The notes beneath the pieces are model-generated. The model did not search any database. It was given only the letters and a program-made list of their open reading frames with translations, and had not been told where the DNA came from. Below are positions 1-35,292 of a stretch of 35,797 bases of DNA, piece after piece. Both the position numbers and the translations under genes were made by a program. Every line of letters begins with the position of its first letter. Position 1 is the first letter of the stretch. The stretch is from Rotaria sordida (lineage: Eukaryota), in assembly GCA_905250005.1 (NCBI GenBank), contig CAJNOH010001581.1, forward strand, positions 1-35,797. The letters are read 5' to 3'.

Positions 1-193
1 TGTAGGTGTGGGTGCGGGTGTGGGTGTGCGTGTGGGTGTGGGTGTGGGTGTGGATGTGGGTGTGGGTGTGGGTGTGGGTAACTCTTGTATAGCTGTCCAC
101 ACCCACACCCATACCCATACCCACACCCCACACCCACACCCTCATCCATGTCCACACCCACACCCTCATCCATGTCCACACCCACACCCATAT
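1..193. repeat. Head-to-head telomere-like repeat pair. A (TGTGGG)n G-strand tract at 1-82, a 15-bp spacer and a (CCCACA)n C-strand tract at 98-190, running off the window start. The C-side carries a roughly 30-bp higher-order unit 'cacaccctcatccatgtccacaccca' twice.
   Basis: Direct reading shows GGGTGT hexamers followed by ACACCC hexamers. The G- and C-tracts are reverse complements of each other, so the locus is a hairpin palindrome. Confidence 0.9.
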
Positions 194-2375
194 GAGATTG
201 ACAGCTAATTGTAAAGGCTTCAGTGGTAGGTACATTTGGATATAACGATTCTATATCAAAGCTGATCATTAATTCATTATTTCTCGTTAATGTTTTGTTC
301 ACAATTTTGGCAAATTAAAATGGCTCCTTCACATATGAAAAGACTTTCTTTCTCATATTAGCAAGAAATCCTGCGAGTTTATAATTTAAACCATTATACC
401 TTGCAATTATTGTTCTTAATGTGCAGTTGGCTTTATGTGCCTTCATTGTACAATAAAGCACTGGAATTGAGTTATCCGAGACAAATTATTCATCCTATTC
501 TTTTATAATTTTCTTATTTTTCAATAATTTGAGCATTCTGCTATTGATTTATTTTTTCTTCTTTTACTGATTCATCATTTTCTATCTTACTTAACTTCTT
601 TGGATCTTGCAAAATTTTTTACTTTATCTACATAATCACTTTTGCTCATGCATACTACTGCATTACCTTTGTCAGCTCGTAATATAACTAACGATTTGTG
701 CATTTTTTAGTTCTTTTTTTAATGCAATTCGTTCTTCATCACTTAAATTTGATTACATGATGGTTTCCAAGAGATGTTTCTCTTCTCTGACTCATCTTTG
801 GTTTTTATTAAGGCATATTCAATTTCTGTTTGTATGTTGAGAGGTTCCATGACGTTCTCTTCTATGTGAAATTTCCAACTTCTGCTTAGTAATTTCAATT
901 GTGAAATACTAAGAAGTTTTGACAATAAATTATAAACTAATTTGTCCAGAAGAGAAAAGGAGCTCGTGTATGATCATCTACAGCACTAAGTAACAGAAAT
1001 TTTAACCTCATGTAAATTCTTGGCTTTAGCTATTTAAGCTTGTTTTTTTTTTCATGTACATGAGATTTAATTCTTTAACGACGATGAGGTGCAAATGTGT
1101 TGAAAAATGCATCAATTGCAATACGATTCAATTCTTTTCTTAATTTAAGTGGATTTCTTTGTTTTTCTGAGTATTCAATAAAGTAATTCACGTTAAAATT
1201 TCTTCACTTGAAGAGATGAAACAAGATGTTTATTTGCTAACTTAAATCTGAGAAATTCACGAGTTACGCCGTACACAAGACATACATGTAAAAGTTTAAT
1301 ATCACACTGAGTTTTTGCTAATTTCATTGTTAATCTCTCGACATGTTTGAATCTTCTTAAAGCACATTCACCATACTTTCTTCGGATGTAATTAATTAAG
1401 TTGGAGTTGTAAATAGAATTTTTAGTAAACCGAACGATAAAATGAAAAATATGAAATTTTTTATTTCTTTATTTAGGAGCTTTCGACACTGTTTATATAA
1501 TTATCAGTTTAAAGAAAAAGATTTTACAATAGAAGATATTTATATAGATTGAAATAAAGTCCAAAGTCTAATGAATCATTACAACTCAAATTTACGCGTA
1601 TGCAAATATCAGTGTATTTTTTTTCTCATTGCAACAACACGGAATACAAAGCTAAGTGAAAAAAAGAGGAAGAATATATGAAGAACGAGACACATGTGAT
1701 GATAAGCATATCGATGAAAAAATGACTGCCTACGTAATGAAAAAGTGATGCTTCGTTGATTCATGTAAACATACATTGATGAGAAAAAAAACCAGTAATG
1801 TTGTCAGTGATAAATACAAGGTAAAATCGATTGGAAGCACACAAAAAAATCTATACACTCTAGTGTCACCTAGCACGTAAGTATATTTAGTTTCTAACAT
1901 TAGTATACTAGTAATAAAATTAAAGTTAAAAGTAAAGAGTAGCTACAAACAAGAAAAAACCAGTTGAACATAGACACGTGACATTCTGATGACCTTTTTG
2001 ATGATATAGACGTACCAAAAGAGCTATTTGAATATCAATATACTGAATTAAAATCTAAGATTGAAATATGAAAGCAAAAAGTCCTTATGCACAAAATAGG
2101 AGAAGTGTCCTGGATTTTTCACAAAAGACAGCCTTTTCACTTTTCTGTATAAACATCAATCAAAGAGTGCAGCGATTGAATGAATTCCATCGATTGGCAT
2201 GCTTGTCTTTCTGGAAAAAGGCTCTCAAAAAATCAACTCAAAAAACGCTCTCATGAAGAAAGTATTCGGGCAGATAAAGTCGAGTCGATTTTGATCTTAT
2301 TTTTGGGTAATATACAGTGAAAAATTTTATCAATTACAATTGATTAAAATTTCAAAATCCTATATGTAATGAAAA

Positions 2376-2396
2376 TGAGAGAGAGAGAGAGAGAGC
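2376..2396. repeat. (GA)n microsatellite
   Basis: The run gagagagagagagagagag is read directly from the sequence. Confidence 0.9.
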
Positions 2397-2550
2397 GATG
2401 ATGTTCTATTTCGTTACTATTGTAATGTGTATTTTATTGTGATCAATAATGACAAACTGGAAAAGTAGCATTACTACCACCCTAGGTATAGATGTGCACT
2501 GCACTGTTCAATCACTACAGTTGTGTCTGCTTCGCATAATACACAAGTTG

Positions 2551-2696
2551 AGGGTGTGGGTGTAGGTGCGAGTGTGGGTGGGTGTGGGTGTGGGTGTGGG
2601 TGTGTGGGTGTAGGTGTGGGTTGAAATCTTATATTCTTTCAAATCCATCCACATCGCTACCCTCACCCACAACCACACCCACACCCATACCCACAT
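2551..2696. repeat. Head-to-head telomere-like repeat pair. G-tract at 2551-2621, a 37-bp spacer and a C-tract at 2660-2696.
   Basis: Direct reading shows (GGGTGT)n, then a spacer, then (CCCACA)n. Confidence 0.85.
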
Positions 2697-2937
2697 ATTT
2701 TTTCCTTTGTTTTCCTTTTTTCCTGCATAAGTTGGTTCATTTTACTTTCTTTACTTCTTATGCATGCCTTATGTAAGTACTTCAGAGTGTCACATAAACA
2801 GTAAAAGCAAAATCCAAAAAAAATGCATCTTTATAGGTTGGAAAAATGAAGTAATTCTTTTCAACAATAAATACGCAGTAAAATCGATTGTAAACACACA
2901 ACTTGTATAGTCTAGAATCGAGTACGTAGATGGCTGC

Positions 2938-3487
2938 GCTGATGCAAATACAACTTGTATCGGCCCCTCGAGAGCTTCTCATGTATTCCGTCCTAATCCT
3001 TCCACGCTGCAAAGCTATCCACATCCACCCTCACGTATCGGCATGTATCCGCTTGTATCGGACCTGTATATAGTCATAGCGTCGTATATACCCCTGAAAA
3101 GCCTAGAATTCACGAAATCTTGTATGGGATGTATCGAGGTGTATTGCCTTGTATCGCCACGTATCGATACAAGCCGACGCACACCAATCGCTATGTATCG
3201 AACCTATGTATAGACATGCCGTGGTATATACCCTAAAAAGCCTACAATTCACCAAAGCATGTATTGCCTTATATCGGCTTGTATCGATACATGGCGGTAC
3301 ATGATTTCGTGAATTCTAGGTTTTTCAGGGATATATACCTCGGTATGGCTATACATAGGTCCGATACAAGCGGATACATGCCGATACGTGAGGGTGGATG
3401 TGGATAGCTTTGCGGCGTGCAAGGATTAGGATGGAATACATGAGAAGCTCTCGAGGGGCCGATACAAGTTGTATTTGTATCGGCGCA
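2938..3487. mobile_element. Near-perfect palindrome (foldback or MITE-like) of about 550 bp, rich in GTATCG/CGATAC motifs, with nested internal inverted and direct repeats
   Basis: 2945-3100 is the reverse complement of 3300-3480; for example 'caaatacaacttgtatcggcccctcgagag' pairs with 'ctctcgaggggccgatacaagttgtatttg'. The inner segment 3100-3320 is also self-complementary ('gaattcacgaaat'/'atttcgtgaattc'). It contains an internal roughly 29-bp direct repeat ('cccctgaaaagcctagaattcacgaaatc' / 'ccctaaaaagcctacaattcaccaaagc'). No ORF is present. Confidence 0.75.
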
Positions 3488-3939
3488 CCCCTCTTATAAT
3501 GTGACTTTGTGGTAATTTATTATCTAGAAACATGAGTAATCCAGCATCTTACTATATTAGCTTTTCGACTTTTATGAGAAAACACTCATCGGTAGCTGGC
3601 ATCGGTAACATCCGCTTGGTTACTGCAAAATAAAAGCAGTTGTGATTTCTTTTCTATGAAAATTGCTGGCTCTGAATAAATGAAGTGCTAAATAATATCG
3701 CATTTATTGGTTAAAACTTTTCAATCTTTCCTTCATTGAGTGTGATTTGCAGAGAAAAAACGCCTTAGCTAACGAGGTAGAAAAATATCTATGAATTTTA
3801 GACAGCAGAATATTGAATACATATTATACTCTTTCTATATAAAAAAATTAATCTGAAAGAATGTTTGTAAATTCAATGAAGTGGATCTGATTCTAAACTT
3901 TTAGAAATATTTTCGCGTAATATTAATCACTCGATTATC

Positions 3940-4611
3940 ATGGCCAGTTACGTATGCAACGAGACTAATAAATTAGTTCGCGTGGTATTGCTTGATAAAT
4001 CCGGTAAACACAGTACTCGAATAGTACCGCCACAAGAAACAGTAAGTTTTCAAACAACATCGTCTGGTTTCAATACTTTTTCACTTTACAAACTGTTACC
4101 TGGAAACAACGATTTTGAGCCATCATCATGCGCAGACTATACTTGTCCTGCAGGCACTACATTGACTATTCAAGAAACAGAAACTTACTTGCAGTTCGTA
4201 CCATCTAAATATACACCAACATGGAAACAAAATTTTATTCATGATTTGGTAATTGGGTGTGTGTACAGTAATAATAGATTGCCTGGTGAAGCTGCTCGTG
4301 CCACCTCGGGATTGGACCCGGCGGCTGTGGGCATGGCTGAAACTAGAATACATAATCTTACCGATGAAATAGCTCGAGTGGTTCTTACTGATGCAAATAT
4401 GAGAAGAAGCGATCACATATTTAAACCTCAAGAGGTGTTTCGTTTTAGGTCAAAAAAGGGTTCAACTACAGTATCACTTTTTCGAAGATCAGAAGATAAT
4501 AATGGTTTTGAACAAACATCATGTGCGAACTCTAGTTATAATGGAGGTCAATCGTATGAAATCAAAAAAACATGTGGTCACTTCGAGTTTGTCCCTAATA
4601 TTATACCATAA
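3940..4611 (+). CDS. Intronless hypothetical protein of 223 aa built from two homologous half-domains of about 80 aa. Each half ends in a '...TSCA..x..G...E..FEFVP' / 'LQFVP' motif.
   Basis: Single ATG-initiated ORF at 3940..4611. Its halves align internally: VRVVLLDKSG...CADYTCPAGTT..ETYLQFVP against ARVVLTDANM...CANSSYNGGQSYEIKKTCGHFEFVP. A GC-rich patch at about 4280-4340 stands out from the AT-rich surroundings. I recognise no family. Confidence 0.55.
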   Translation: MASYVCNETNKLVRVVLLDKSGKHSTRIVPPQETVSFQTTSSGFNTFSLYKLLPGNNDFEPSSCADYTCPAGTTLTIQETETYLQFVPSKYTPTWKQNFIHDLVIGCVYSNNRLPGEAARATSGLDPAAVGMAETRIHNLTDEIARVVLTDANMRRSDHIFKPQEVFRFRSKKGSTTVSLFRRSEDNNGFEQTSCANSSYNGGQSYEIKKTCGHFEFVPNIIP

Positions 4612-5566
4612 CTAATACGGAGTATTTTTCTGTATCGTTTTTCTTAATAAATATCACTCTCACAAAATGTGACCAAATATGATATATGTGAACAGAAATA
4701 CGACAACGAATGTTAGAAGCAACAAATCCATATGAATCTATATGAAAGGCATTCATCAGCCAGAACTTTGATATCATCATCATAAATACAACCATAGAGA
4801 ATTGAGACTGAACTCTGATTATCTAACTATCGGGATATCATTTTGCTTTAGTTTCATATTGAATTCGACATGATATTTATCTTGGACGTCGGTTTCGATG
4901 CTGTTTTCATTATTTTATTCAAAAATAATTTCAAAAAACGAGCCACTTAAAATAATCCATAAAATAAAGAAAGCTTTTAACAATTGAATAGTTTATGTTA
5001 ACTGATCAATGCTGTTTACACTGCTATGAGATATTCTACGATAGTTTTATTACGGCATGAAGCTATCTTGTGTAGGTGTCGGTGGGTGTGTTTAAAGAAA
5101 AAAGTTGAATTAAACATAAAAATACAAAGTAGAATATATCAGTTACTACGACCGGTTTCGTCCTTGCAGAAGGGACTCATCAAGTAGCATAGAGGATATA
5201 AAATTCTAAAAGTATTATTAAATCTAATTCAAAGTCTGTTATAAATAAATAGATATATGAATATTTGATCTCCTCGATAGCTAAGAGTGATTCACTTCAT
5301 CCTCACTCCAGAAAGGCAATAGAAGTTTATATGAAGTTGAGTTTCTTAGTTATCTCTATCAAATATTTTGACTTAACTCATTGGGAGACTACCGTTGGTA
5401 TATCGGCTTCAATCCCTAGAGAAACGAGTTTGCCGAAAAACATATATCTGTTTATTAAAACGAAGACTAAAACTGCTGATCTTTCGAGCGTTTTCGCCCT
5501 TATCCTATTCACGAAAGGAATAAGATTAGAAAATTGCAACCGAAAGGCCCGGTTTGGCTGTTAATT

Positions 5567-5827
5567 TGGGTGTGTGGGTGTGGGTGTGGGTGTGAGGGTG
5601 TGGTTGTGGGTGCGGGTGTGGGTATGAGGGTGTGGGGGTGGGGGTGGGGGTGGGTGTGGATCTTCTCTTCACCCACACCCACTCCCACACCCGCATCCAC
5701 ACCCACACTGACACCCACACCCACACCCGCATCCACACCCACACTGACACCCACACCCACACCCACTTCCACACCCGCATCCACACCCACACTGACACCC
5801 ATACCCACACCCACACCCCACCCTCAT
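5567..5827. repeat. Large head-to-head telomere-like repeat block. A degenerate G-tract at 5567-5660, an 11-bp spacer, and a C-tract at 5671-5827 organised as 3-4 copies of a roughly 36-bp higher-order unit 'cacccacacccacacccgcatccacacccacactga'.
   Basis: Direct reading. The 36-bp periodicity is also visible as a 12-aa periodicity ([12 protein letters not shown]) in the artefactual ORF 5509..5814. Confidence 0.9.
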
Positions 5828-7095: not shown

Positions 7096-9984
7096 GTCTG
7101 AGTCATGAAAGATCTAAACGCTCGGATTCTCGTCACAAAATGATACGAATCTTTTATGAATGAGGTTGGTTGTTGAGTTCGATGAGAGACAAGGAATGAT
7201 GCTATATATTTGGATAATTCGTTGATAATTGTATGCTTTGATAGAAGAAATTGTGAGCCTTTAGTTGTTCACACATGACAGACAGCGATGCGAATATGGA
7301 ACGGAGTCGCCAAAAAAAAAGTGACTAATACATTATTTTATATAATTGCCTAAGGACCTTGTTCATTTCTATTTCTTTCTTTTCCATTGAAGACGAACTA
7401 GGAAAGAAGCGACATTGCTTCCCGTTAAGAATTGCTCTTCCTATGCTCTCATAATCAATCTTATTGAAAACAATTATACAGTTTCCCGTGCTGCTTTATA
7501 AATTACAGTAGGCGCGGTGCATTTAAGAGTTCATCGGGTACGTTCAGTATCTTCTTCTTGCAAACGCTTTTCATCAATTGCTGAGACGCAGAAAAAATGT
7601 GTCGATAGAGAGTACAAAAGACGGATAGGTGATACGTGGGTAGTAGTTGGAACGAATTTCGTTCAACGTCAGTTTGAAAATCTACGAAATTGATTATTCT
7701 TTGTTTCATGGAAAAATCCTAGACATGTGCAAGAAGTCTTTCCTCAACAGAAGATAAGATGTATGAGGATACATTATGAGCAAGTTTGTAAATATTGGAC
7801 GTCTAGTTCTCACTAGCAGGTCCATGAGCAAGTCTCTCGAATTTAATCTCATCTATCATCGAAGCACGATTATGTTCTGTCATAGTCTTTTATCAAAGAA
7901 CAAGATTGGTCGAGTAGAAATCAACCGTAGGCACTTTCTTTTCCAACCAGTCTATACACGATTTTAGTTCTTGATTGAGGCAAATAGTCACCTTGTAACG
8001 TACTTCATATTCGTGTTGTAGACATTGACGTTTGAAAAGCAGAGCTTGCTCAGCCAAAATATAAGATTGTTTCAACGCATGAAGGTGAATAATAGATTGA
8101 ACTAGACTATACATTAACCAAGTGTAGGGATTCTCAAAGCCTAATTAATAGGAACTGAGCAGTCTTCAGCTGTCAGACGATATTGTCCTTTTCTTAGCGT
8201 ATACCGAAATGATTCATACAACTGCAGACTTGTGTTCAAAAACCTAAATGCGAAAGCAATACTTTCAGTAGATAGAGCTCGCGCAACTCATTCAAAGAAC
8301 ATAAAAAAATGTTTGAACCACAGAGGTCTCCCACACTCATTTTTCGACTAGTGAGAAGATTGACACAAATCGTGCATAAATGTCAAACACGAGATCCTCA
8401 TATTCTAACATAAGAAAATTGAACGGCGCATTTTCTCGTTATGATAAGAGTACGTGCGTAAAAACATAGTTGTTTGAGGTTGTTTGTGGAATGGCAAGAC
8501 AATGGACATGGAAACCACGCTGATTCAACTACTTTTATGTTGGTCGAATAAACCACATAAGCTTTAGTAGGCTATTGGTAGATGGTTGGATCTTTTTTAT
8601 GAGTCCACAATTATATCAAGTATTTTATTTTCTGAGAGAAAGCGTCGTTCACTAAAATATTTCTGTCTGCTGTCTGCTGAAGGCTATCAGAGAGTAGCTC
8701 TACTCCAGCTATGGAATAAACTGTATTTTTTAAAAGAAGCTTGACTAAAAAGTAATCGTAGATAGATAATGCAAATTTGATGCTGGTATACATATTTTTG
8801 TTTTCATTTTTATAATTATTCAAAAAAAACCTTGGCCACGGACAATCATAATCTGTCAATCTGGCTCATGGGTTAGTTTTTCTTTGAAATCAATAATTTT
8901 TTTGAATAAGGTCCTTTACGTGTAATAAAATTCCTCAGAAGATATTAGTTATTGTGAAATACAAACTTGACTTCTACGTTTTTTTTTCTTTTGTATTTTT
9001 AATGAAGAAAAAATTCATCAAAGTGGCGTTTTAGAGAATCTGAATTCCGTTTTCCTTCTTTCTGAGCAGCAGAGCTATGTTAATGAAATTATGAACATGA
9101 ATCTTTTTCTATCTTTTTGTTCGTTGATAGTAATCAGAAAGTATCCAATTGATAATTAGAGGAAAATAAGCAATCTTTTGCGAAAAAGCATCAGAGCATA
9201 CTAAGAACTTTGAAGACAAATGAAGACATGGCAAATGGCGACCATCCATCTTCAGAGTAATAGAATATTGAGGGCCACTTTATGCTTGAACTTACTTCAA
9301 TCGCCAGAATCACGATACCAGCGTATTCATTCGCAAGCAGCGTTAAGAATCAGTGTGGATTCTGGGCTTAGATGTGACTGTGTAGTTCCTTTAATAAATG
9401 ACCAGCTCTAGTAGACTTTAAAAAGATATCAATGGCTTACTCAAAGGTGTTTTTCTAGCAATATAGATTACATAGTTCATATTTTCTTACGATTTTCATA
9501 ATTTCAGATGGTTTTCAGGATATTAAATAAAGATTTCGATTGCAACGAATATCATTGGTTGAATGATTTTTGTGTTTATTTTTCAAAGAAAGGATTTCGT
9601 TTCCAGTGAATTGTCGAAACTCCCCGCATGGCATTCAATAAGATTGTAATTTTCGAGCCATTGTCAACATTGATATTGAGGCGACAAAGAGGTACTTATC
9701 CAGAATCGGTTAGCTGATAAAGTGGTCTGAATTACACTCTGCCATACTTTATTTAACCGATCGAAATTCGACAGAATGATCTAACGAGGGAACCTCTTCA
9801 AGTACTAAAAAGCATTTGACCTCAAATTTTGTCCACAGATAGGAGATGTATATACTAGAAAAAGTCTAAAAGGATATCGACCCAAGTAGCGATTTGGCTG
9901 AGATAGCAGCGTTTTACTATAATTTTTCTGTAGAACCTCACGTTGCTAGTAAAATTAAAGTTTTGAATTTTGATCTGAAACTTT

Positions 9985-10936: not shown

Positions 10937-10955
10937 CCAACCGTGTACATCCACA
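10937..10955. repeat. Short C-strand telomere-like tract (acatccacacccacaccc) immediately after the palindromic element
   Basis: Read directly from the sequence. Confidence 0.7.
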
Positions 10956-11354
10956 CCCACACCCTTTATGAATAGTTATTGCACAATAAGCGTACTATTT
11001 AGATGAAATCCATTTTGTGTTTCTTTTTCACTTTCATTCTGCTTTTTTTTTCGAATGTCGCAGTAGAATAAAAACACGACAAGTGAAGTCAACAACAACG
11101 GCATTCTCCGATAGTTTGAAAAAAAATTTGGGTTTTTTTAAATTAAACATTTACAATGACACATGAACATTGGTATAGTATTTCTTTATTTTTTTTTATT
11201 TAATATCTACTGATTTTCTAGTGCTCAATTCTATTCTGATTGGCAAACAACGGTTCATTGTTCATTTGAAAATGTGTTTACTCCAACGATTGCTCATATA
11301 GTCGGTGCTAATCTTCAAAATATATTGGGTATTAAACACTTTAGACCAGATGCA

Positions 11355-14300
11355 ATGGCTAGAGATGCCTCATCACCATGTATATTTACATGCCAAAGAC
11401 GAGAAGCAAACGATATTCGTGATAAACTTATCCAGGTGACGACTGAATCGTATTCACATATTTGGTTTTCAATGCAAACAGAACCATTTCATTTTATTTA
11501 CAATAGGCGTTCAATGGTGGATGATGATTCAATGAAAGTCAAACAATATCCTGTCTTTTTCTATTTTGGTTCTATGTATACTTATAGTACTTTTCATATT
11601 CATAGTAAACCACACCCAGTTATTTACGATATTGACATAACCAAATGGAATCAGGCACCAGAAACAATTCGTATCATGTCTAAAGATAAAACGAGACAAA
11701 TCTTTATACCAGTGAAATGGATACAAAAAAAAGTGTTGGTCAATACAAATGGACGACCATGTGTGGTTTTAATGTTAAAATATTCTGTAAAAATGAAAAG
11801 AAAAGCAACAATCAATGGTAAATCAAAGTATGAAAGGTAAGGTAGATAGATCAATTGATAATACGACTGTTGTTTTCCAGACAGATGCTCTCGTGACACT
11901 TGTTCCTTGGCAACAGTTGTGGGTGTGGCTGTGGTAGACGTGGATGTGGGTGTCGGAGGTGCAGCGACTATAAATGTTCATCAGTTTTTTGCCCACTCAC
12001 ACACATATCCGTGCTGCAAAACTGAATGTCCGAGAAGTAGTTGTCACCGAGGAGCAAGTGTCACGGGAATATCTGTCATGGAATCGTTTTATATTATAGT
12101 TCCATGAAATCATACATCAGTAATCTTATATTTCATATCTCTTCTTTTAGAGTATGTCGAATAGATGAAGAAGGACTCGAAACAATCGTATCGAGAAGTT
12201 CTGATCTTCTTCTTTCGTTCAATGAAATTGACCATACATATGCTTTTCTGTCAGAGCTTACAAAAGAAACCGATAATTATCGCAATAAATTTAAAATCTA
12301 CTTTGTTTCACTTAAACAAGTTCAATGTGATAATAATAATAATAAACAACCTTTTAATTTGCCTCGATCAGCATCACATAAACAACATTATGCATTGAAA
12401 ATGCTTTATTCTATGGGTTATGTGTTTCAAGATAAATATTCAAAACAAATGCATGATCAATTTGTAGCATTTGATAAAGAATTATTCAATAATATGTGCT
12501 ATTATCTTAAAGAAAAACTCGAAGAAAATCATTGTTATATGTTAAATCGTATATTCGATGAATACAACACTTATCTAAAAGAGAAACGTAAAAATGAACA
12601 AGAATATTCTGTACAAAAACTTCCCTATTGTATTGGTTGTATTTCGTTGACACCATTACGAATTATCTATCATCGAATGGAATCATCAATTGAAAATCGA
12701 GCATTAAGAATGAGACAATTCGGTGGTGAAGATATGTTTTTATTGGTACATATTCGAGAAGAAGATAATCAAGCATTAAAAGATTTTGATTCATCAATTA
12801 AATGTCGACTTAAATCAAAAATGATGCAAGGAATTAAAGCTATGGATAGAATCTATCGTTTATTTGGTACATCAACTAGTCAATTAAAAGAAATGTCATT
12901 TTGGTTTGCAGCTATTGAAGATAAACCAATTGAAAAAGCTTGGGAAGAATTAGGAAATTTTTCGTCCATAAAAAATGTTGCCAATTATGTAGCACGGATT
13001 GGTCTTTATTTCTCAACATCTCATGCAACAGGAGTACGTGTATATTTTCTATTTTTGATAGAACAAACAAAAAAATCCAAACAATATTTTTTATTATCAT
13101 ATTTTAATAGATTTCATTTAAATATGAGAAAAACTTCTCACCCAACATGCAATATGTAGCAACAACTATTGATGATATTGAGACAAATGATAAAAAATAT
13201 TGTTTTACTGATGGCATCGGAAAAATGTCATGGGGTATTGCTGGTCTAGTTGCTCCAAAATTAAATATTAAATTGGAATCAAGAGATGATATACCGTCAG
13301 CTTATCAAGTTCGTATTGCAGGATGTAAAGGAATGCTCGTCATTGATCCTAAATCGAAAATGAATGATTATTATATAAAAGTTAGACCATCGATGGAAAA
13401 ATTTCAATCTGATAATTGGGAATTAGAAGTATGCAAATATAGTGGACCGTGTAAGGTTTCAAAAACTTAGTAGACAAATAAATATTATAACAATAGATTG
13501 TATTTGTTTTTATAGTTGAACTTAGATTCAATAATCAAGTGATCATGCTTTTATCGGATTTGCGTAATCCTGATGCAGTTTTTGAATCCTATCAAAATGC
13601 AAGTTTGACTAATTGTTTTGCACAAAATGAAAAGGAACAGCAACGAAAATTGAAGTTTGCATCAGCTAAGGAAGATTTATTAAAAAATAGAATTCCATTA
13701 CCGTTAAATGAAGCACGAAATATGTTTGGTGTTGCCGATGAAACTGGTACATTAGAATATAGTCAAGTATTTATTCAGTATAAAAATCTTGATCCAAACA
13801 TTGATAAAACATATATTGTTGTAACTGGTATGTTTGTTTTTTTTTAATTATTTTATAATTCTACAAAAAAATTACATCAATTATGTATGTCTATAGGTGA
13901 TGTATTAGTAGCGAAAATGCCGTGCTTACATCCTGGCGATTTTCGTCGGTTGACTGCTATCGATGTACCTCAATTGAGAAAATGTATACGTGATTGTATT
14001 GTATTTCCAACGAAAGGAAAACGACCTCATCCGAATGAAATGTCTGGATCTGATCTAGATGGAGATCAATATTGGGTGAGTCTTAATGAAACTAACTGAT
14101 GATTCACTATTTCAATTAAAATACTATAATAAGAAAGAAAAAACTATTTTATTTCGGATACTTTATAAAAGCAAAAATTATTATCAAGATTTTGACTAGC
14201 ATGATGTCTTAAACGAATGTTGTCTTATTTTTATGTTTGTACTTATAAGTTTTGTAGACAGATTAGTACAAGAAATAACAATGCTAGATATCTTCTTACT

Positions 14301-17237: not shown

Positions 17238-17307
17238 GATGTAGGGTGAGTGTGGATGCCGGAGTGTACTAGTTCTCTTTCGGTACACCCACACCCACAT
17301 CCACATC
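17238..17307. repeat. Mini head-to-head telomere-like hairpin (gatgtagggtgagtgtggatgccggagtgtac / loop / gtacacccacacccacatccacatc)
   Basis: Direct reading shows imperfect reverse-complementary arms of about 25 nt with a 12-nt loop. Confidence 0.75.
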
Positions 17308-17896: not shown

Positions 17897-17955
17897 CAGG
17901 GTGTGGATGGGTGTGATTCTTCTTTTAACTCACACCTATACCCACACCCACCTCC
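17897..17955. repeat. Mini head-to-head telomere-like hairpin (gcagggtgtggatgggtgtga / 16-nt loop / tcacacctatacccacacccacctcc)
   Basis: Read directly from the sequence. Confidence 0.75.
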
Positions 17956-19102
17956 AAATCAAACAAAATCAAATTTAAAAATCGGGCTCTATTACGTCCT
18001 AGCCTTAAGGACACTCTACAACCTGAAAACCACCCGGGCTTGGTAGCTCGTATCCTTATTATGAAATTCTTGCCTGCGTAAAGGGTAATGAATTAACTAG
18101 AACTTGTGCATTTCGTTGAGATTTGGGGGAGATATTTTAACCATAAGCTATTCTAGTCAAGATCAACATTTCCTGAAATTTTGGTTGAAATCGGACGAAA
18201 AATAACAAAGTTCGCTTCTGAGGGGGCCCCCCTTAAACAAAAACTACACAATTAAAACAGGCTTTATTTTATAGATTGTAGAGGTTTTTACGCTGCATCT
18301 TGTGGCATATTTTGTTTTTAAAGTAAACGTACTTAATCATGAAAAAAAGAAATACAAAAACTGGCTATTCACATTGTAGGACACTCGATATTATTCATAA
18401 AGTAATTATAAATTAAACTTTCCATTCAATTTACCGCAAAATTCATAAAAATCTATATTAAGTAAGTCTCATGAGAGTGCAGACGAGATATTTGTGTTAT
18501 GGATATCTGTGTGAAATAAAGTAACCTAACAGTATGTTTCAATTCAATGCACCAGAAATAATTTCTGACTCAAAGGGTTAAATCCTATGTCTATTTACGT
18601 TTAGAGTATATCTATTGTCGTAGCAGAAACTGGCAAACGAGACAAATTTAACACTATTTTAGAAGGAAATACGAATTACATTTTTCTTTTATATATTATA
18701 TTTGAAACTATTCGTGCAGAAATACTTAAGGTTTAAAATTTGTCTCAGTTTTATGTGATGATATTAAACAAATCAACATAGTATCGATGATAAACGAATA
18801 CATCATATAATGAAAGATTTCCTTTATTGTGACCTATCGTTTTAATATCTTGTTGATCTTCAGAAAAGATGTTGTATCATTTGAGACAACTGAAAAACAT
18901 TTTCTATTTAATGATTTTCTTAAACAGTAAAATATAATAATGAATTTCTTTTCTCTTTTTAATGAACAGAATTTGCAACGTTTATTATTCTTTAATTTGA
19001 ATTATCTTTGATTATTCATTTTTCAATATATTAATATAAATTAAGAGAATTTTTTGTATCTATATAATCACACAAAACATTTTGCGAAAAGTATTCCATC
19101 AT

Positions 19103-19137
19103 AGGGTGTGGGTGCAAGTGTGTCTGAGTGTGCGAGT
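19103..19137. repeat. Degenerate telomere-like G-tract (agggtgtgggtgcaagtgtgtctgagtgtgcgagt)
   Basis: Direct reading. The downstream complementarity is weak. Confidence 0.5.
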
Positions 19138-19876
19138 ACATAAAGAGAACACTCACAGCCTGCATCTCGACGCACTCTTTCAAACAAAAAAAAATTTAAA
19201 TATATTGACAGAGTCTGGACCGAGAGTTCCTTGTCAGAAGATGAAAAAATCATAAACCCAGAAAAAATAAGGTATCGAAGAAAAACCGATGCAGTTTTTG
19301 AAAGAACAGAAGAGGAGCTATCTTCCCATGCATTTATCTCAATTTCGAAATTTCTGACGAAAATTGACTTTTTTTTAGAAGACCTTTAAACATATCTTCA
19401 TAGTTGTTTAAGTGCTATGTTGAGATTTTTCTTCAACCATTCAGTTGGAAGAATACTATACTATTTGCGTCTCTGAAGCAAGAAGTTTTCCTGTGACAAT
19501 AATACATTTTGAATGATCAAAGGTTGCGAGCATAGGTGAGAGATGAGTACAATATTCCCATCAAGATCCACACTCTTATGATTTTCATGACATGGGACAC
19601 TTAGCGACGACATTAATGATGAAATGTATTAACATTGAGCTTCATGACTTGTGAAAATTTCCATGGTATACCGACGATTTCATCAGCTTGTGCAATAACT
19701 CAACGTGCAGAACTGTAAAGAAAAATATTAATAACATTTGCCTACTTCTTGTTTTTTCTCTTTTCCTTTGCATGGAGTAACGCGTAACCATATTAGTCAT
19801 CACACGATTATTTTGAAAATAGGTCATAGAATGAATACGTTCGTAGATTGGTTCATAAATCATTGATTATTTTCAG

Positions 19877-25800: not shown

Positions 25801-26334
25801 CTCATCAGTACGAGGGTGAAAATGAATAACCATTGCACGTACTCAATCATCATATTGCATTTTTGCAACTCTAACGGTAGTAGAAAATCATTTTAGAAAG
25901 CTTTGGTGAAGTGACATTAAACGGAATTACTTGGATGTTTTGAAAGAATTATATAGTCTAACTTTAAAGTCTAACCTATACTAAGTAGAACATTTAAGAT
26001 TATCAAAATGAATACCATGTGAAAAAAGTGAAGATCGTTTCCAAAACAATATTTATATTTCATTTTCATAGATTTGGTTCGTATGCTTGGAGCTGATTTC
26101 AAGGATTTAACAACAGTTGAACAAATGGAAAAGATAAGAAAACTATGCAGCATGGTGCGTCAATTCAATGCTACATATAAGAATAATGCCGAAAATTGAA
26201 TATTTCTTTTTCAGTTAGATGAAGTACCAGATTTTATTGGTAAATTATTTATGCCAGCAACAGCAAACCTATCACCAATACCTGAAAAGCAACTTCCAAC
26301 TACAGATAACATGAAGATAGGGGTGCGTGAGTGA
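19877..26334 (+). CDS. PARP4: PARP4/vault-PARP-like poly(ADP-ribose) polymerase with BRCT, a possible WGR-like segment, PARP alpha-helical regulatory, PARP catalytic, VIT and vWA domains plus a C-terminal region. Proposed exons: 19877-20035, 20088-20477, 20535-20831, 20892-21029, 21087-21242, 21292-21452, 21501-21647, 21695-21980, 22189-22339, 22401-22540, 22607-23483, 23540-23613, 23662-24436, 24552-24860, 24919-25015, 25078-25100 (micro-exon), 26072-26154, 26215-26334.
   Basis: BRCT: 'FNGKTIVLELGHEIGFKAKQELINYLREQQAHISYILTAS|TDYV..AKQLGLPIVNVEYVYRC'. Regulatory: 'LDENVCQLIESIWLESIGDLNKMLSISPESITLKT', 'ALRFYSLIPHRQEYNIDLIKNRRALTEKIDLCQ'. Catalytic: 'RQLFHGSKYVNFLGILSR|GLVMPKMVVEDLGVVRTDIGCLGYGIYFSD...LLCICQVALGE' and 'DNEYAIYQLDQQRLLYIVEV', which keeps the PARP H-Y-E triad. 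VIT: 'KPIEAKYVFPLDENSTVCGFEAHINNRIIKGVVKEKEQAKREYREAIQKGHGAYLMHQEEAQVFSVAVGNLPANNEVIIKITYVAELEI'. vWA: 'IEIIFIIDVSNSMDGS...ITFGSD..FPISTP', 'RGNTDLFAVL', 'ILLSDGHIHD', 'SAYTSFVAIEER'. Every proposed junction is frame-consistent with GT..AG and introns of 48-208 bp, except a 971-bp intron (25101-26071) that carries a palindromic element. The track ORF 22331..23539 hides a 66-bp in-frame intron (22541-22606) whose removal restores the VIT consensus. The 3' end is uncertain: the stop at 26332-34 coincides with a possible GTGAGT donor. Confidence 0.8.
25447..25815. mobile_element. Near-perfect palindrome (foldback or MITE-like) of about 370 bp inside the long intron of the PARP4-like gene
   Basis: 25450-25620 is the reverse complement of 25630-25812; for example 'cacgaactgataaatcgctttttaaattttagtcatgccaatttgtagagc' pairs with 'gctctacaaattggcatgactaaaatttaaaaagcgatttatcagttcgtg'. 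The centre lies near 25625. No ORF is present. Confidence 0.8.
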
Positions 26335-32203: not shown

Positions 32204-32958
32204 AAAAGTGATTCTGAGTGACATCTCTTTTTTTTCTAATAATTTTGCTATTACACTTTTATTATTCTAATCCTGAAGCACTACAATATTGTTTATTCTT
32301 CAACACAAAAAAAATAAAAGAATTAAAGGGTGCGGATCGATGTACGCGTGATAGTAAACATAAGACGTACATTCTCATATTTTTCATGAGTCATGTGTTG
32401 GAAAAAAGCAGTTGCAAGATTTCTCAGTGCAAATCTTGGCGCACAAGTAATTGTTCCTGGCTTACGACTAAATTGATAAATACTTCAATCGTGTTGGAAA
32501 AATCTGAATCAAAGTTTTGTTGAGAGTGTGAGTGAGAACTCAATATAACATCCTCATTCCCATCTATCCACATCCATACATCCAAAATTTGCCATGATCT
32601 AAACGAAGTAGAATGCATGGAAAAACTTGCCATTTCTATCGTTCAACAGACAAATACATTAAAAATTTGTGGTTATTGAGTTGTAAGCTAACAGTAACAT
32701 TCTTTCAGCTAGTAAGTCTCATTTTATTTATTATAGACGTCAAAATATAAGGTAGGTGGTTGTTTTTTGAATAAGTGTCGATAGGAACAAGCTAGAGACC
32801 TGTGATTTTCACCATTCAACAGAGAACAGAGATGAGCATTAGGGATGCACCAGTGCCAGTAACTGAGTGCCCAGTCGAACTGGGACCCAGTCACGACTGG
32901 GCACTTAGTCATTTAACGTTTATTCCGCTAATCGATCAGTACTTCCCTCTTTTCTAAC

Positions 32959-33026
32959 GGTGTGGGTGTCGTTATTGTCTTTATAACCATTCCCACATCC
33001 AAACAACATCCACACCCACACCCACA
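32959..33026. repeat. Mini head-to-head telomere-like hairpin (ggtgtgggtgtc / spacer / cccacatccaaacaacatccacacccacacccac)
   Basis: Read directly from the sequence. Confidence 0.7.
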
Positions 33027-33941
33027 GGATACAAAGGATACCGGGATTCGCTTTTTCTCCCTTATACTTACTTCTCTTTTTTCAAACAGAGATTGCGAAT
33101 AATGTCAAACAATTCTGCTCTCTAATCAGAGTCTATAGCTCATAATGTGTAACTACTACAAGTTGATTCATGACAACAAGCAGCACTTACGTGTTTGCTG
33201 CAGATGGCCTTACTCTAGATTGGCCAGATGCGAGATCTAACTGTACATCATCAACGTATCAAGATTTAGAGAGTTCCAAACATCTGAGTGGCTGATCTAT
33301 AGAAACTTCAATTTATATAATCAAGAGAAGCATCGTTAGTCTAAATAATTTCTTTTTCATTCTTCACAATAAATTCTTGTTAATTTTGTTTTCTTTTTCA
33401 AAAAAAAATGATCGTCTTGAAGAAAAGATCAAGATTCAGTTGTCTGTTTCATCAGATGGGAGGAAGCACCCATAGTTCTACAATCAAGCACACAAATGAA
33501 AGTGCATTGTTACTTCATATCAGTGAATCGATCGAAAACATATATCTAACATCTGACTATATGCATTCGTATAGAAGGAGAGACAAAGTAATTACACTTA
33601 AAGAAAACAACAAGTGTTATTGCACACACTCACGAAGAAAATATTTGATGAAGCTTTGCCAGATGCGTTCGTGATCATTTGACTGCTATGTTAATCAGGG
33701 ATATTTATTTTCTGTATAAATGTTTTGCCTATTCGATTTTCTTCACAATTTATCGTCGAACGCAGCGATCGCTCCCATAGAATGAAGCTATTTACAACTA
33801 CAGGTATCTCATTGTTTTTTGTGACTCGATAAAGTGCATATAACGGATGCTTTTATTAAATTACGACGAATTTAGCCGTGACAGTTGTTCTTTCGTTGAT
33901 ACTGATTGATTTTGGTAAATTAAATAAACATATACTTTCAT

Positions 33942-35003
33942 ATGAGTACTTCTTTTTGTTTATTTAAATCAGTGTCAACACAACTCTATCAGAAATCGAT
34001 CAATTGGGACAATCGTGCCCAAGGTCAATATACAGATGCTATGGCCAAAGCTGATTTTGGTTCGGTCAGCGGATGGAAAAACGATCGTGCATCGATCTCA
34101 GACGGGAAATTACGTATCACTTTACGAAAAAATGCATTGGGTGGGGAAAGCGGTATCATATCCAACACAAGAATCCCAGATGGTTCTGCATATGAGTTGG
34201 ATTTTGACGTTCGGTTTCATAGTCAATTCGACTGGAGTCGTGGTGGAAAAGTTGGTTTCGGTTTTGGCATCGGAAATCGAAATACAGGATGCAATCCCCC
34301 AAAAGATGGAGCGGGTGGAACTCTACGTTTAATGTGGTACAATGATAATAAACGAGTCTATTTCATTCCATATGTTTATTATTATGGTATGCCAGGGCAG
34401 TGTGGAGACAAGTTTGGCAAATCGTATCCATCAACTGGTATGAGTTATTATTCTTAAGGAAAGTTATATTCAGAATCACCGCTAGTTTGAAGTAGTCACT
34501 GTTCGAGATTACTTCTCCATTCGACATGCTTTTGAGCACGGATTATCCCCATAGAGTATCGAAACACAACCGAAAAGTCTTTAAAATTTCTTACCAGATC
34601 ATTTGATGATTCAGTAAAAAATGTCATCAATGATTGCGAAAGGGTGAATATAAAAACGTACTCTTTCTTAACTTTAGGTAGTATTGAAAAAGGCAAGTTG
34701 TACAGAGTTCATATGTATGTCAAATCAAACACTGGTAATAACGCCAATGGACACGTCCAAATAAAAATCAACGGAGAAGTGCTAATTGATCAGAGCATCC
34801 GGTGGACAACCAATGACAGTAAACGACTTATTAACAACTTGTCTTTTCACACGTGAGTTTTATTTCAGAATACTTTTGTTATAAGTACTTTATTTGACTT
34901 TTTTCAAAATAGATTTCGTGGAGGAAGCGAAGATCATTGGAAATCCAACGTTGATAGCATGATTTACTATGATAATTTGTCTGTCAGACAAATTAGTAAA
35001 TGA
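33942..35003 (+). CDS. Small secreted-looking beta-jelly-roll (concanavalin-like) protein, possibly polysaccharide-lyase-like. Exons 33942(or 33973)-34437, 34677-34852, 34913-35003. An alternative 5' mini-exon 33782-33803 ('MKLFTTT') would splice to 33973.
   Basis: Track ORF 33942..34457 ('...WDNRAQGQYTDAMAKADFGSVSGWKNDRASISDGKLRITLRKN...GFGFGIGNRNTGCNPPKDGAGGTLRLMWYNDNKRVYF...') continues through GT..AG introns 34438-34676 and 34853-34912. The downstream exons read 'G SIEKGKLYRVHMYVKSNTGNNANGHVQIKINGEVLIDQSIRWTTNDSKRLINNLSFHT|FRGGSEDHWKSNVDSMIYYDNLSVRQISK*'. Phases match: 1 then 1, and 2 then 2. The composition is Gly/Asn/Trp-rich. The family assignment is a guess. Confidence 0.6.
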
Positions 35004-35153
35004 GGTTTGCATCTTCAAACGATCTCGAACATATCGAATTCATGAATTCTATTTTTTTTTCTTATTACTCAAATAAATTTTCGCAAAATTTTGAGTGAAA
35101 TTGATTTCTTAAATATCTTGAAGATGTTAATGGTCTTCGGAGAACTAAAGAGT

Positions 35154-35292
35154 ATGGGTGTGGGTGGGTGTGGGTGTGGGTGGGTGTGGGTGTGGGTGTA
35201 GAAACGGAGACGTCGCCACCCACACCCACCCACACTCTGTACAGTGTGAATATTTAGTCGATCCACAGAGATTCACACCCACACTTATACCC
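35154..35292. repeat. Head-to-head telomere-like hairpin. G-tract at 35154-35199, loop 'gaaacggagacgtcgc', C-tract at 35217-35236, and a second short C-tract at 35272-35292.
   Basis: Read directly from the sequence. Confidence 0.85.

What the first reader, a model, noticed from the sequence alone, without database searches (positions are those of the whole stretch)
1..35292. Recurrent head-to-head (G-strand then C-strand) telomeric-repeat palindromes scattered through 36 kb
There are at least eight loci where a (TGTGGG)n tract is followed, after a spacer of 11-37 bp, by its reverse complement (CCCACA)n: 1-193, 2551-2696, 5567-5827, 17238-17307, 17897-17955, 32959-33026, 35154-35292 and weakly 19103-19137. 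Isolated short tracts also occur at 10937-10955, 11917-11960 and 5060-5090. This orientation is what a telomere-to-telomere fusion junction or a hairpin-capped end looks like. Ordinary interstitial telomeric repeats left by chromosome healing or by terminal retroelement addition would be single-orientation tracts. The arms and loops differ between loci, so they are not copies of one element but the product of a repeated process. The motif matches the bdelloid-rotifer telomeric repeat, and this cluster suggests a subtelomeric region. The structures can form G-quadruplex or i-motif hairpins.
Basis: partly seen in the sequence, partly recalled or inferred. Interest (0 to 1): 0.8.

Follow-up and report, generated by a model that had tools for sequence, protein, structure and literature searches.

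The report
Head-to-head telomere-repeat junctions in rotifer DNA
This stretch of bdelloid rotifer (Rotaria sordida) DNA is punctuated by scars where two DNA ends, each capped with telomere repeats, were joined nose to nose, which suggests how these break-tolerant animals re-stitch and reshuffle gene-sized pieces of chromosome.

Summary
The window is 97-99% identical to three Rotaria sordida assemblies. It holds nine places where a (TGTGGG)n-like tract is followed within 60 nt by (CCCACA)n, against 0.34 expected by chance. The reverse order never occurs. Across 231 kb of non-redundant bdelloid DNA, including four named species, the count is 18 to 0.

Three of the junctions recur in independent assemblies with hexamer-unit length differences, so these are not assembly foldbacks. 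The arms are not mirror copies, the flanks are unique, and there are no target-site duplications.

The left arm of the 5565-5823 junction is a former chromosome end. It caps a 5'-truncated Athena/Terminon-type retroelement 3' end, which has a hammerhead ribozyme at 5147-5183 (minus strand) and sits on an older G-tract at 5070-5093. The same layout occurs in Rotaria sp. Silwood2.

Homology between species and between assemblies breaks at the arms. One flanked segment carries a polysaccharide lyase gene of bacterial origin.

The spacers are pyrimidine-rich on one strand (p about 0.0002) and resemble the last bases of the retroelement's 3' tail.

Best reading: these are fossil joins of two telomere-capped ends, possibly helped by the retroelement's reverse transcriptase. 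A subtelomeric location is unproven, and a hairpin-capped origin is not supported.

The parts
1..193 (.). Junction P1: G-arm 1-79, spacer 80-96 (TAACTCTTGTATAGCTG), C-arm 97-193 with a 24-nt higher-order repeat
   Evidence: hairpin z = -6.2
2547..2696 (.). Junction P2: G-arm 2547-2622, spacer 2623-2657, C-arm 2658-2696. Homology to Rotaria sp. Silwood2 starts at 2698, just after the C-arm
   Evidence: z = -6.2
5070..5093 (+). Older G-tract. It is the telomere on which the retroelement was primed, merged with the complement of the element's 3' (ACACCC)n
5094..5564 (-). 5'-truncated Athena/Terminon-type 3' end. On the minus strand it has a hammerhead ribozyme core at 5147-5183 (Rfam match 5128-5201) and a 57-nt tail at 5094-5149 ending CTTTTTTCTTTAA
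   Evidence: (HH9, 21.2 bits, E 0.0045 in a 241-nt search)
5565..5823 (.). Junction P3: G-arm 5565-5659 (the telomerase cap on the truncated retroelement), spacer 5660-5670 ATCTTCTCTTC, C-arm 5671-5823 with a 36-nt higher-order repeat
   Evidence: z = -6.6
10946..10966 (+). Solo C-tract abutting the right end of a 960-bp foldback element
11880..12077 (.). Ambiguous inverted-repeat element in an RdRP intron. Outer 36-nt arms enclose G-tract 11915-11958 and C-tract 11992-12005
17244..17307 (.). Junction P4: G-arm 17244-17258, spacer 17259-17282 (contains GTTCTCTTTC), C-arm 17283-17307
   Evidence: z = -2.3
17898..17956 (.). Junction P5: G-arm 17898-17916, spacer TTCTTCTTTTAACT 17917-17930, C-arm 17931-17956. 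Also present in assembly L130
   Evidence: z = -4.9
19102..19175 (.). Weak, decayed junction P8. The purine-rich spacer is on the plus strand
   Evidence: z = -0.4
32519..32583 (.). Conserved in three other R. sordida assemblies
32957..33028 (.). Junction P6, about 860 bp upstream of the PL14 gene: G-arm 32957-32973, spacer 32974-32991, C-arm 32992-33028. Hexamer-unit indels between assemblies
35150..35287 (.). Junction P7, about 150 bp after the PL14 stop codon: G-arm 35150-35202 (30 nt in the other assemblies), spacer 35203-35213, C-arm 35214-35238, second C-tract 35271-35287
   Evidence: z = -4.9

Best explanation
Each locus is a fossil joint between two DNA ends that both carried telomeric repeats. 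These were true telomeres, or new telomeres added by telomerase to broken ends.

The left end contributes its G-strand (TGTGGG)n. The right end, turned the other way, contributes the complement (CCCACA)n. Joining two such ends can only give G-then-C, never C-then-G.

Some joints re-united or replaced neighbours, so homology between species or assemblies breaks at the arms. The result is a chain of gene-sized segments, each bounded by a C-arm on its left and a G-arm on its right.

Shown: the strict orientation, the reality of the loci, and the breakpoints at the arms. Also shown is that one G-arm here, and one in a sister species, caps a truncated Athena/Terminon-type retroelement. That G-arm was therefore once a chromosome end.

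Inferred: the short pyrimidine-rich filler next to the C-arm is an abortive cDNA of the extreme 3' tail of such a retroelement. It would have been primed on one telomeric overhang before the strand was ligated, or template-switched, to the second end.

After joining, the arms evolve like minisatellites, with hexamer indels and higher-order repeats.
For: 1. Orientation. There are 9 G-then-C and 0 C-then-G pairs in the window, against 0.34 expected for each. The count is 18 to 0 in 231 kb from several bdelloid species.

2. Not artefact. P5, P6, P7 and the degenerate 32519 locus recur in independent R. sordida assemblies, with 6-nt unit indels. The Silwood2 junction is present in two assemblies.

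3. Arms are independent arrays. Their variant units do not mirror each other. Flanks are not inverted duplicates, and no target-site duplications are seen.

4. Former chromosome end. A G-tract at 5070-5093 is followed by an antisense PLE-type hammerhead at 5147-5183, about 380 bp of body, and then the G-arm at 5565. Rotaria sp. Silwood2 has the same order: a G-tract, a Hammerhead_1 match at 8676-8727 on the minus strand (26 bits, E 2e-4), then the G-arm, spacer and C-arm. A strict hammerhead search found only these two in about 230 kb. Published accounts describe Athena/Terminon 3' ends as a hammerhead followed by (ACACCC)n, with 5' truncations capped by telomeric repeats (PMC6431247).

5. Breakpoints at the arms. 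Homology between the window and Silwood2 starts at 2698, right after the P2 C-arm. It ends at 4728, where Silwood2 continues with a degenerate G-tract. Assemblies L128 and L129 share a G-arm and spacer, then diverge completely inside the C-arm.

6. Context. Junctions are dense here and in an A. steineri region containing a PL14 gene that is bacterial-like in the window (4 in 21 kb). They are absent from about 94 kb of other loci. The PL14 gene is 56-66% identical to Bacteroidota enzymes.

7. Filler. Fifteen of 18 spacers contain TCTT or TTCT on one strand, against 7.6 expected. Purine/pyrimidine skew is 0.45 against 0.22. The two hammerhead-bearing tails end in the same kind of T/C-rich run directly 5' of their C-tract, as do solo C-tracts in A. 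steineri.

8. Plausibility. Telomeric repeats and Athena fragments were reported at induced breakpoints in A. vaga, described as transient neotelomeres that leave scars (PMC13564844).
Against: - No joining event is observed directly.
- Only two junction-associated breakpoints could be examined, and Silwood2 may be a paralogous rather than an orthologous copy.
- Only 2 of 18 junctions have a recognisable hammerhead fragment beside the G-arm.
- The link between filler and retroelement tail rests on two tails of low-complexity sequence and was not tested statistically.
- Plain end-joining of two telomeres does not predict an 11-36-nt filler.
- Junctions also occur deep inside chromosomes, so they are not simply stacked chromosome ends.
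- Telomere-like tracts sit in most intergenic gaps of the A. steineri locus. Junctions also lie close to PL14 genes in three species. This could instead point to selection for a function.
Confidence: 0.6

Rival explanations
1. The palindromes are copies of a foldback or MITE-like mobile element. Its inverted arms are made of telomere-like repeats and its short core is pyrimidine-rich. It inserts as a unit into intergenic DNA, and its arms then expand and contract.
For: Spacers share a motif across species. The window holds other foldback elements. The 11880-12077 element in the RdRP intron has outer non-telomeric inverted arms and lies between conserved exons, like an insertion.
Against: No target-site duplications are seen, and apart from 11880-12077 and a weak excess at the degenerate 32519 locus (local score 19 against 12.3 +/- 1.8; no inverted repeat found), no terminal sequence is shared beyond the telomeric repeat itself. 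Arm lengths range from 14 to 154 nt. At two junctions homology stops at or inside an arm instead of resuming on the other side. One G-arm is explained independently as the cap of a retroelement fragment.
Confidence: 0.12
2. They are selected cis-elements. For example, they could be boundary or telomere-protein binding sites between genes. Or they could be pre-positioned 'safe break' points: a break in the spacer would leave two ends already carrying correctly oriented telomere seeds.
For: Placement is almost exclusively intergenic. Seven of nine intergenic gaps in A. steineri L131 carry a tract. Junctions lie near PL14 genes in three species. Assemblies share a G-arm and spacer but have different partners, as if the joint had been re-used. 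The geometry is that of the two inverted telomere seeds in artificial-chromosome vectors (own knowledge).
Against: They are absent from about 94 kb of other loci. There is no fixed relation to gene starts or ends: they occur between convergent, divergent and tandem genes. Arms decay and vary freely. No test of selection was possible.
Confidence: 0.1
3. Whole G-spacer-C units are inserted at breaks as reverse transcripts of a small hairpin RNA derived from the retroelement's 3' end, rather than arising from two separately capped ends.
For: The spacer plus C-arm resembles the tail plus (ACACCC)n of Athena-type 3' ends. PLE reverse transcriptases are reported to make inverted, self-primed structures (PMC3846280).
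Against: Neither of the two hammerhead-bearing 3' ends has a G-tract upstream of its tail. At P3 the G-arm belongs to an oppositely oriented element. The arms are not complementary copies of each other.
Confidence: 0.08
4. Fold-back (hairpin-capped) repair or assembly foldback artefacts.
For: The sequences can fold into strong hairpins.
Against: Flanks are unique rather than inverted duplicates. Arms are not mirror images. The loci are reproduced in independent assemblies with allelic differences.
Confidence: 0.04

Closest known systems
Head-to-head interstitial telomeric arrays at ancestral telomere-telomere fusion sites (classic case: human 2q13; own knowledge)
   Same: Two degenerate telomeric arrays lie in G-strand-then-C-strand order at an internal site. 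Unrelated sequence lies on either side.
   Different: Here they are short (14-154 nt per arm) and very frequent, about one per 4 kb. They separate gene-sized pieces rather than two whole chromosomes. They also carry a pyrimidine-rich filler.
Athena / Terminon telomere-attaching Penelope-like retroelements of bdelloid rotifers (PMC6431247, PMC8557442, PMC3846280)
   Same: The unit at 5070-5659 fits the description: a hammerhead motif, then a tail, then (ACACCC)n at the 3' end. It is attached to a G-tract, 5'-truncated, and capped by telomeric repeats. Genes lie between telomeric tracts.
   Different: Chains of such elements should give tracts of one orientation only. The G-then-C arrangement is not mentioned in the secondary accounts I could read; the two primary papers were not held. 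No Athena reverse transcriptase gene was found in the 10 of 21 ORFs of 100 aa or more that were scanned; the rest were not scanned.
Telomeric repeats inserted at repaired double-strand breaks, and neotelomeres at induced breaks (PMC7215372 for mammals; PMC13564844 for A. vaga)
   Same: Telomerase acts on broken internal ends and leaves short interstitial tracts as scars.
   Different: The insertions I know of from mammals (own knowledge; the paper's text was not opened) are single-orientation tracts in otherwise collinear DNA. Here both ends appear to have been capped before joining, and partners can differ.
Head-to-head inverted copies typical of endonuclease-containing Penelope-like elements (PMC3846280)
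   Same: At P3, two 5'-truncated 3' ends face each other, one of about 470 bp and one of about 11 nt. This echoes the head-to-head inverted structures ascribed to PLE reverse transcription.
   Different: The junction here is made of telomeric repeats. The elements lack an endonuclease, and the second 'copy' is only inferred from a short filler.
Telomere-bearing elements (TBE1) of Oxytricha and inverted telomere seeds in artificial-chromosome vectors (own knowledge)
   Same: Segments are bounded by C-strand repeats on the left and G-strand repeats on the right. Adjacent units would read G-then-C.
   Different: The bounded segments contain no transposase, only ordinary host genes. There is no evidence of excision or linearisation.

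Membership tests
Telomere-telomere fusion-type interstitial telomeric sequence | Two telomeric arrays in head-to-head (G-strand then C-strand) order | tested here: met
   9 loci in the window. 18 to 0 against the reverse order in 231 kb of bdelloid DNA
Telomere-telomere fusion-type interstitial telomeric sequence | At least one flank bears hallmarks of a former chromosome end | tested here: met
   Met for P3 and the Silwood2 junction: a hammerhead-bearing Athena-type 3' end sits on a G-tract and is capped by the G-arm. Not demonstrable for the other junctions
Telomere-telomere fusion-type interstitial telomeric sequence | The two flanks derive from different ancestral locations | tested here: inconclusive
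   Homology breaks at the arms in two comparisons. Orthology is uncertain and the other junctions have no comparison
Athena/Terminon (endonuclease-deficient Penelope-like element), for the 5070-5659 unit | Hammerhead ribozyme motif near the 3' end | tested here: met
   The core UUGAUGAG-helix II-CGAAAC-CGGUC has the palindromic helix III typical of PLE hammerheads. Rfam HH9 gives 21.2 bits, below the gathering score of 52, with E 0.0045 locally. The first core C is mutated to U
Athena/Terminon (endonuclease-deficient Penelope-like element), for the 5070-5659 unit | Reverse-complement telomeric repeats (ACACCC)n at the 3' terminus | tested here: met
   On the minus strand the tail runs into AAACACACCCACCGACACCTACAC, which is the complement of 5070-5093
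Athena/Terminon (endonuclease-deficient Penelope-like element), for the 5070-5659 unit | 5' truncation capped by telomeric repeats | tested here: met
   The fragment ends at 5564 and is followed by about 95 nt of TGTGGG-type repeats
Athena/Terminon (endonuclease-deficient Penelope-like element), for the 5070-5659 unit | Athena-clade reverse transcriptase ORF | tested here: not met
   No reverse transcriptase domain among the 10 window ORFs scanned, of 21 listed at 100 aa or more. The copy is a short 3' fragment, so none is expected
Foldback / MITE-type transposon | Target-site duplication and terminal sequence shared among copies | tested here: not met
   No shared flank repeat longer than 4 nt. 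The arms share only the telomeric hexamer. The exception is the ambiguous 11880-12077 element, which has outer 36-nt arms
Fold-back inversion / hairpin-capped break | Arms are exact complements and flanks are inverted duplicates | tested here: not met
   Variant units differ between the arms. Inverted-alignment scores of the flanks equal those of shuffles for 7 of 9 loci
microRNA precursor families (Rfam hits) | Score at or above the family's gathering threshold | tested here: not met
   All hits are far below threshold, for example 66.5 against 168 and 49.6 against 90 bits. They match on both strands, as any GC-rich hairpin would

The most novel reading that the evidence does not exclude
Bdelloid rotifers have a retroelement-assisted end-joining route. 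The RNA piece that lies 3' of the Athena/Terminon hammerhead cut (tail plus (ACACCC)n) anneals to a telomeric G-overhang. The element's reverse transcriptase copies the few bases of tail, runs off, and jumps to a second G-overhang, which covalently bridges two telomere-capped ends. The resulting G-spacer-C joints would be re-usable. A break in the joint leaves two correctly capped ends, so gene-sized cassettes, including foreign genes, can be stitched in and reshuffled without loss of coding DNA.
Probability: 0.2. Interest if true: 0.85.

Novelty: new variant of a known kind. Interest (0 to 1): 0.6.

Why it matters
Bdelloid rotifers survive massive chromosome breakage and carry an unusually large share of foreign genes. 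How fragments are re-joined and how foreign DNA is captured remain open questions.

A strictly oriented, sequence-recognisable scar would mark past joining events genome-wide. The scar has three parts: a telomere cap, a short retroelement-like filler, and an inverted telomere cap.

With such a marker, the history and mechanism of fragment joining could be tested by simple pattern counts in long-read assemblies and in irradiated lines. The scars would also link telomerase, telomere-attaching retroelements and gene-order change in one structure.

If the scars are only decayed fusion points, they are still a useful marker of dynamic regions rich in horizontally acquired genes.

Tried and rejected
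- **Metagenome scan.** A scan for TGTGGGTGTGGGTGTGGG returned 120 contigs. Nearly all had 45-70% GC and were not rotifer, so they gave no usable orientation statistics.
- **IMG/VR scan.** The same pattern hit Thr/Pro-coding repeats of giant-virus-like contigs. There were no Terminons and no hammerheads.
- **Whole-window Rfam scan.** It gave only sub-threshold microRNA-like hits to the hairpins and missed the hammerhead. The hammerhead appeared only in a 241-nt search.
- **Other junctions.** Rfam searches around P4/P5/P8 and P6/P7, and a strict structural search of all bdelloid loci, found no further hammerheads.
- **Primary papers.** The Terminon paper (PMC5850863) and the Athena paper (PMC1890498) are not held. 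I could not check whether they mention inverted tracts.
- **Apparent rearrangements.** The differences of assemblies L130 and L128 from the window coincide with N gaps, so I dismissed them as scaffolding.
- **Promoter or terminator role.** I considered and dropped this because the junctions lie between convergent, divergent and tandem genes alike.
- **Telomerase read-through as the source of the filler.** I dropped this because young junctions with near-perfect arms have different fillers.
- **The RdRP intron locus.** I first took 11915-12005 as a clean synteny-preserving scar. It turned out to sit inside a larger inverted-repeat element, so it is left ambiguous.
- **Exact look-up of window ORF 3940-4611.** It found nothing.

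Full report
**What the sequence is.** The window has 29-42% GC. Its polysaccharide lyase ORF is 96% identical to a Rotaria sordida protein. From position 22224 to its end, the window aligns at 93-99.5% (mostly 97-99%) to contigs of three independent R. sordida assemblies.

All ORFs of 120 aa or more are on the plus strand. The recognisable genes are:
- an unknown 223-aa ORF at 3940-4611;
- a multi-exon RNA-dependent RNA polymerase at about 11274-16483;
- a PARP/VIT/VWA gene from about 20100 to about 32200;
- a two-exon PL14 lyase at 33885-34471 and 34673-35003.

The lyase is 56-66% identical to enzymes of Chitinophaga and other Bacteroidota, so it is a horizontally acquired gene.

**Checking the observation.** TGTGGGTGTGGG with at most one mismatch occurs 68 times, against 0.05 in shuffles. 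Reading the sequence confirms a G-tract, a short spacer and a C-tract at eight loci: 1-193, 2547-2696, 5565-5823, 17244-17307, 17898-17956, 19102-19175 (weak), 32957-33028 and 35150-35238. A degenerate ninth lies at 32519-32583.

If the 28 tracts are placed at random, 0.34 G-then-C pairs within 60 nt are expected and nine are seen. The same number of C-then-G pairs is expected and none is seen. G-spacer-C reads the same way on both strands. The absence of C-then-G is therefore a real asymmetry and not a matter of strand choice.

I fetched homologous or related loci from Rotaria sp. Silwood2, Adineta vaga, A. steineri, A. ricciae, Didymodactylos carnosus and unnamed rotifers in metagenomes. In 231 kb of non-redundant sequence the count is 18 to 0, p = 8e-6.

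The junctions are unevenly spread:
- nine in this 36-kb window;
- four in a 21-kb A. steineri region that also contains a PL14 gene;
- one each in four other loci;
- none in about 94 kb of other loci, several of which hold housekeeping genes.

**Artefact and simple alternatives.** P5, P6, P7 and the 32519 locus are present in other R. sordida assemblies. The differences are allelic: P7's G-arm is 30 nt rather than 53 nt, and P6 gains one hexamer in one arm and loses one in the other. The Silwood2 junction is present in two assemblies. These loci are therefore not assembly foldbacks.

The arms are not mirror images. In P1 the order of variant units in the G-arm bears no relation to that in the C-arm, which has its own 24-nt higher-order repeat. 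For seven of nine loci, the 200-nt flanks align in inverted orientation no better than shuffles do. No target-site duplications appear. Segments between junctions share no repeats with each other.

This rules out fold-back repair and makes a transposon unlikely. Rfam microRNA hits are far below threshold and occur on both strands. Five loci fold into strong single-strand hairpins (z -4.9 to -6.6), two fold weakly, and 19102 does not fold. Several arms fit the G3N1-7 quadruplex pattern.

**The key finding: one arm is a former chromosome end.** Between the 'isolated' G-tract at 5070-5093 and the G-arm of P3, the minus strand reads UUGAUGAG-UCCCUUCUGCAAGGA-CGAAAC-CGGUC. This is a type I hammerhead core with the short palindromic helix III (ACCGGU) that marks Penelope-like elements. 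Rfam HH9 matches 5128-5201 at 21.2 bits with E 0.0045 in a 241-nt search. That is below the gathering score, and the first core C is mutated to U.

In the sense of that element, the order is:
1. C-rich repeats, which are the complement of the P3 G-arm;
2. about 380 bp of body;
3. the hammerhead;
4. a 57-nt tail ending CTTTTTTCTTTAA;
5. ACACACCCACCGACACC, which is the complement of 5070-5093.

This is what reviews describe for Athena/Terminon elements: a hammerhead immediately upstream of reverse-complement telomeric repeats, attachment to G-overhangs, and 5' truncation capped by telomeric repeats (PMC6431247, PMC8557442, PMC3846280). The P3 G-arm was therefore a telomere added to a retroelement that had itself been added to an older telomere.

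Rotaria sp. Silwood2 shows the same order at a different position with a different, canonical hammerhead. That hammerhead reads CUGAUGA...GAAAC-GAUC-GUC and matches Rfam Hammerhead_1 at 26 bits, E 2e-4. A degenerate G-tract starts at the point where homology with the window ends. It is followed by the hammerhead fragment, the G-arm, the spacer and the C-arm. A strict structural search found only these two hammerheads in about 230 kb of bdelloid DNA. None lies beside the other junctions.

**Breakpoints.** Homology between the window and Silwood2 is 86-88% and includes non-coding DNA. It begins at 2698, two bases after the P2 C-arm, and ends at 4728. Neither flank is related beyond those points.

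Assemblies L128 and L129 are 97% identical for 9 kb. They share a degenerate G-arm and spacer, then diverge completely inside the C-arm. Telomeric arms therefore mark places where neighbours have been exchanged. I could not show orthology for Silwood2, and only these two comparisons were possible.

A candidate synteny-preserving case lies at 11915-12005, between two conserved RdRP exons. The homologous introns of two other rotifers have no tract there. However, it sits inside a 198-nt element with outer non-telomeric inverted arms. I leave it unclassified.

**The spacers.** They are not random. Fifteen of 18 contain TCTT or TTCT on one strand, against 7.6 expected (p about 0.0002). Their purine/pyrimidine skew is 0.45 against 0.22, and their longest homopurine or homopyrimidine runs exceed the null (p 0.0004).

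On the strand where the spacer is pyrimidine-rich, it lies directly 5' of the C-arm. The T/C-rich ends of the two hammerhead-bearing tails lie 5' of their C-tracts in the same way:
- CAACTTTTTTCTTTAA|ACACACCC (tail) compared with TTCTTCTTTTAACT|CACACC (P5);
- TTATCTTGTAAA|CTCGCCC (tail) compared with AACTCTTGTATAGCTGT|CCACACCC (P1).

Solo C-tracts in A. steineri have the same kind of neighbour. This suggests that the spacer plus the start of the C-arm is a very short copy of the retroelement's 3' end. All spacers (0-36 nt) are shorter than the 57-nt tail, though some exceed the 27-nt Silwood2 tail. Copying the RNA piece left downstream of the hammerhead cut would give such short products. With only two tails of low complexity, this remains a lead.

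In the window the pyrimidine-rich strand is the plus strand for P1 to P6, and the minus strand for P7 and the weak P8. On this reading, both ends of the 2.1-kb PL14 segment acted as the primed telomeres.

**Mechanism, with shown and inferred steps.**
- *Shown:* the strict head-to-head order, independent arms, reality of the loci, breakpoints at the arms, a retroelement-capped former end at one junction in each of two species, and non-random fillers.
- *Established background:* telomerase and Athena act on broken ends in A. vaga and leave 'scars' (PMC13564844). Endonuclease-deficient PLEs prime on exposed 3' ends (PMC3846280).
- *Inferred:* broken or natural ends acquire G-strand repeats, two such ends are joined, and the filler is an abortive retroelement cDNA trapped or used in joining, either by ligation or by template switching of the reverse transcriptase. 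The arms later change by slippage.

I put 0.6 on the joined-capped-ends reading and about 0.35 on the retroelement origin of the filler.

**Comparison with what is known.** The closest analogues are:
- head-to-head telomeric arrays at chromosome fusion points (human 2q13, own knowledge);
- Athena/Terminon chains;
- telomerase insertions at repaired breaks (PMC7215372).

This case differs in its frequency and in its gene-sized spacing. It also differs in pairing two inverted caps with a filler, and in its association with a retroelement end. No paper in the searchable library describes inverted telomeric tracts in rotifers. The two primary Athena/Terminon papers could not be read, so prior description cannot be excluded.

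A subtelomeric location for the window is plausible, given the telomeric tracts, the foreign gene, the foldback elements and the structural polymorphism. It is not shown. Comparable junctions lie at 14.87 Mb of a 20.35-Mb A. vaga chromosome record, and at least 412 kb from either end of an A. steineri contig.

**Verdict.** This is a real and reproducible structure with a strict orientation. It is best read as scars of joins between telomere-capped ends in a dynamic region of a bdelloid genome. It is a new variant of known telomere-healing and Athena biology rather than a new kind of system. It offers a simple genome-wide marker and a testable hypothesis of retroelement-assisted joining.

Noticed in passing
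window 33885-34471 and 34673-35003: A two-exon polysaccharide lyase family 14 gene, 56-66% identical to Bacteroidota enzymes and so horizontally acquired. Telomeric junctions lie about 860 bp upstream and 150 bp downstream. Paralogous genes in A. ricciae (L135 11025-11085, 34 bp after the stop codon) and A. steineri (L131 9010-9066, about 780 bp upstream) also have junctions nearby. An A. steineri copy in a region of housekeeping genes (L133) has none.
   Followed up: partly
window 9988-10947: An element of about 960 bp that is 83% identical to its own reverse complement (foldback). Its right end abuts the solo C-tract at 10946-10966.
   Followed up: partly
window 2928-3494; L001 5874-7400: An inverted repeat with 197-nt arms that are 92% complementary. 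The Rotaria sp. Silwood2 homologue carries about 950 bp of extra sequence at the position of window ~3070.
   Followed up: no
window 25440-25809: Nested inverted repeats inside the PARP/VIT/VWA gene, with 110-nt arms at 90% and 57-nt arms at 88%. Probably an intronic foldback element.
   Followed up: no
window 11880-12077: A 198-nt inverted-repeat element in the intron between two conserved RdRP exons. Its outer 36-nt arms are 81% complementary and enclose a 44-nt G-tract and a 14-nt C-tract. The homologous introns of two other rotifers lack any tract.
   Followed up: partly
window 128-189, 5572-5658, 5670-5823, 35155-35198: The telomeric arms contain higher-order repeats of 24, 32, 36 (listed with period 12 by Tandem Repeats Finder) and 16 nt built from variant hexamers. 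The arms therefore grew by internal duplication after they diverged from the perfect repeat.
   Followed up: partly
L128 17190-17232 versus L129 17226-17281: Two R. sordida assemblies share a degenerate G-arm and spacer, then carry different C-arms and entirely different downstream sequence. This is a structural polymorphism located inside a junction. L128 has a further strong junction at 18298-18442.
   Followed up: partly
L003 2791-2823: An unnamed rotifer contig has a junction made of the TGAGGG/TCACCC repeat variant with no spacer at all (TGAGGGTGAGGGT|CACCCTCACCCTCACCCTCA).
   Followed up: no
L131 1-20801 (A. steineri): Seven of nine intergenic gaps in this region contain a telomere-like tract or junction. 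The region lies at least 412 kb from either end of a 995-kb contig.
   Followed up: partly
window 2623-2657, 17259-17282, 32974-32991; L135 11043-11066; L128 18405-18420: Several spacers have their own short non-telomeric inner stems next to the arms: TTGAAA/TTTCAA, GTGTAC/GTACAC, GTTAT/ATAAC, AGAGTAT/ATACTC and GTGAT/ATCAC. It is as if the first bases added to both ends were the same.
   Followed up: no
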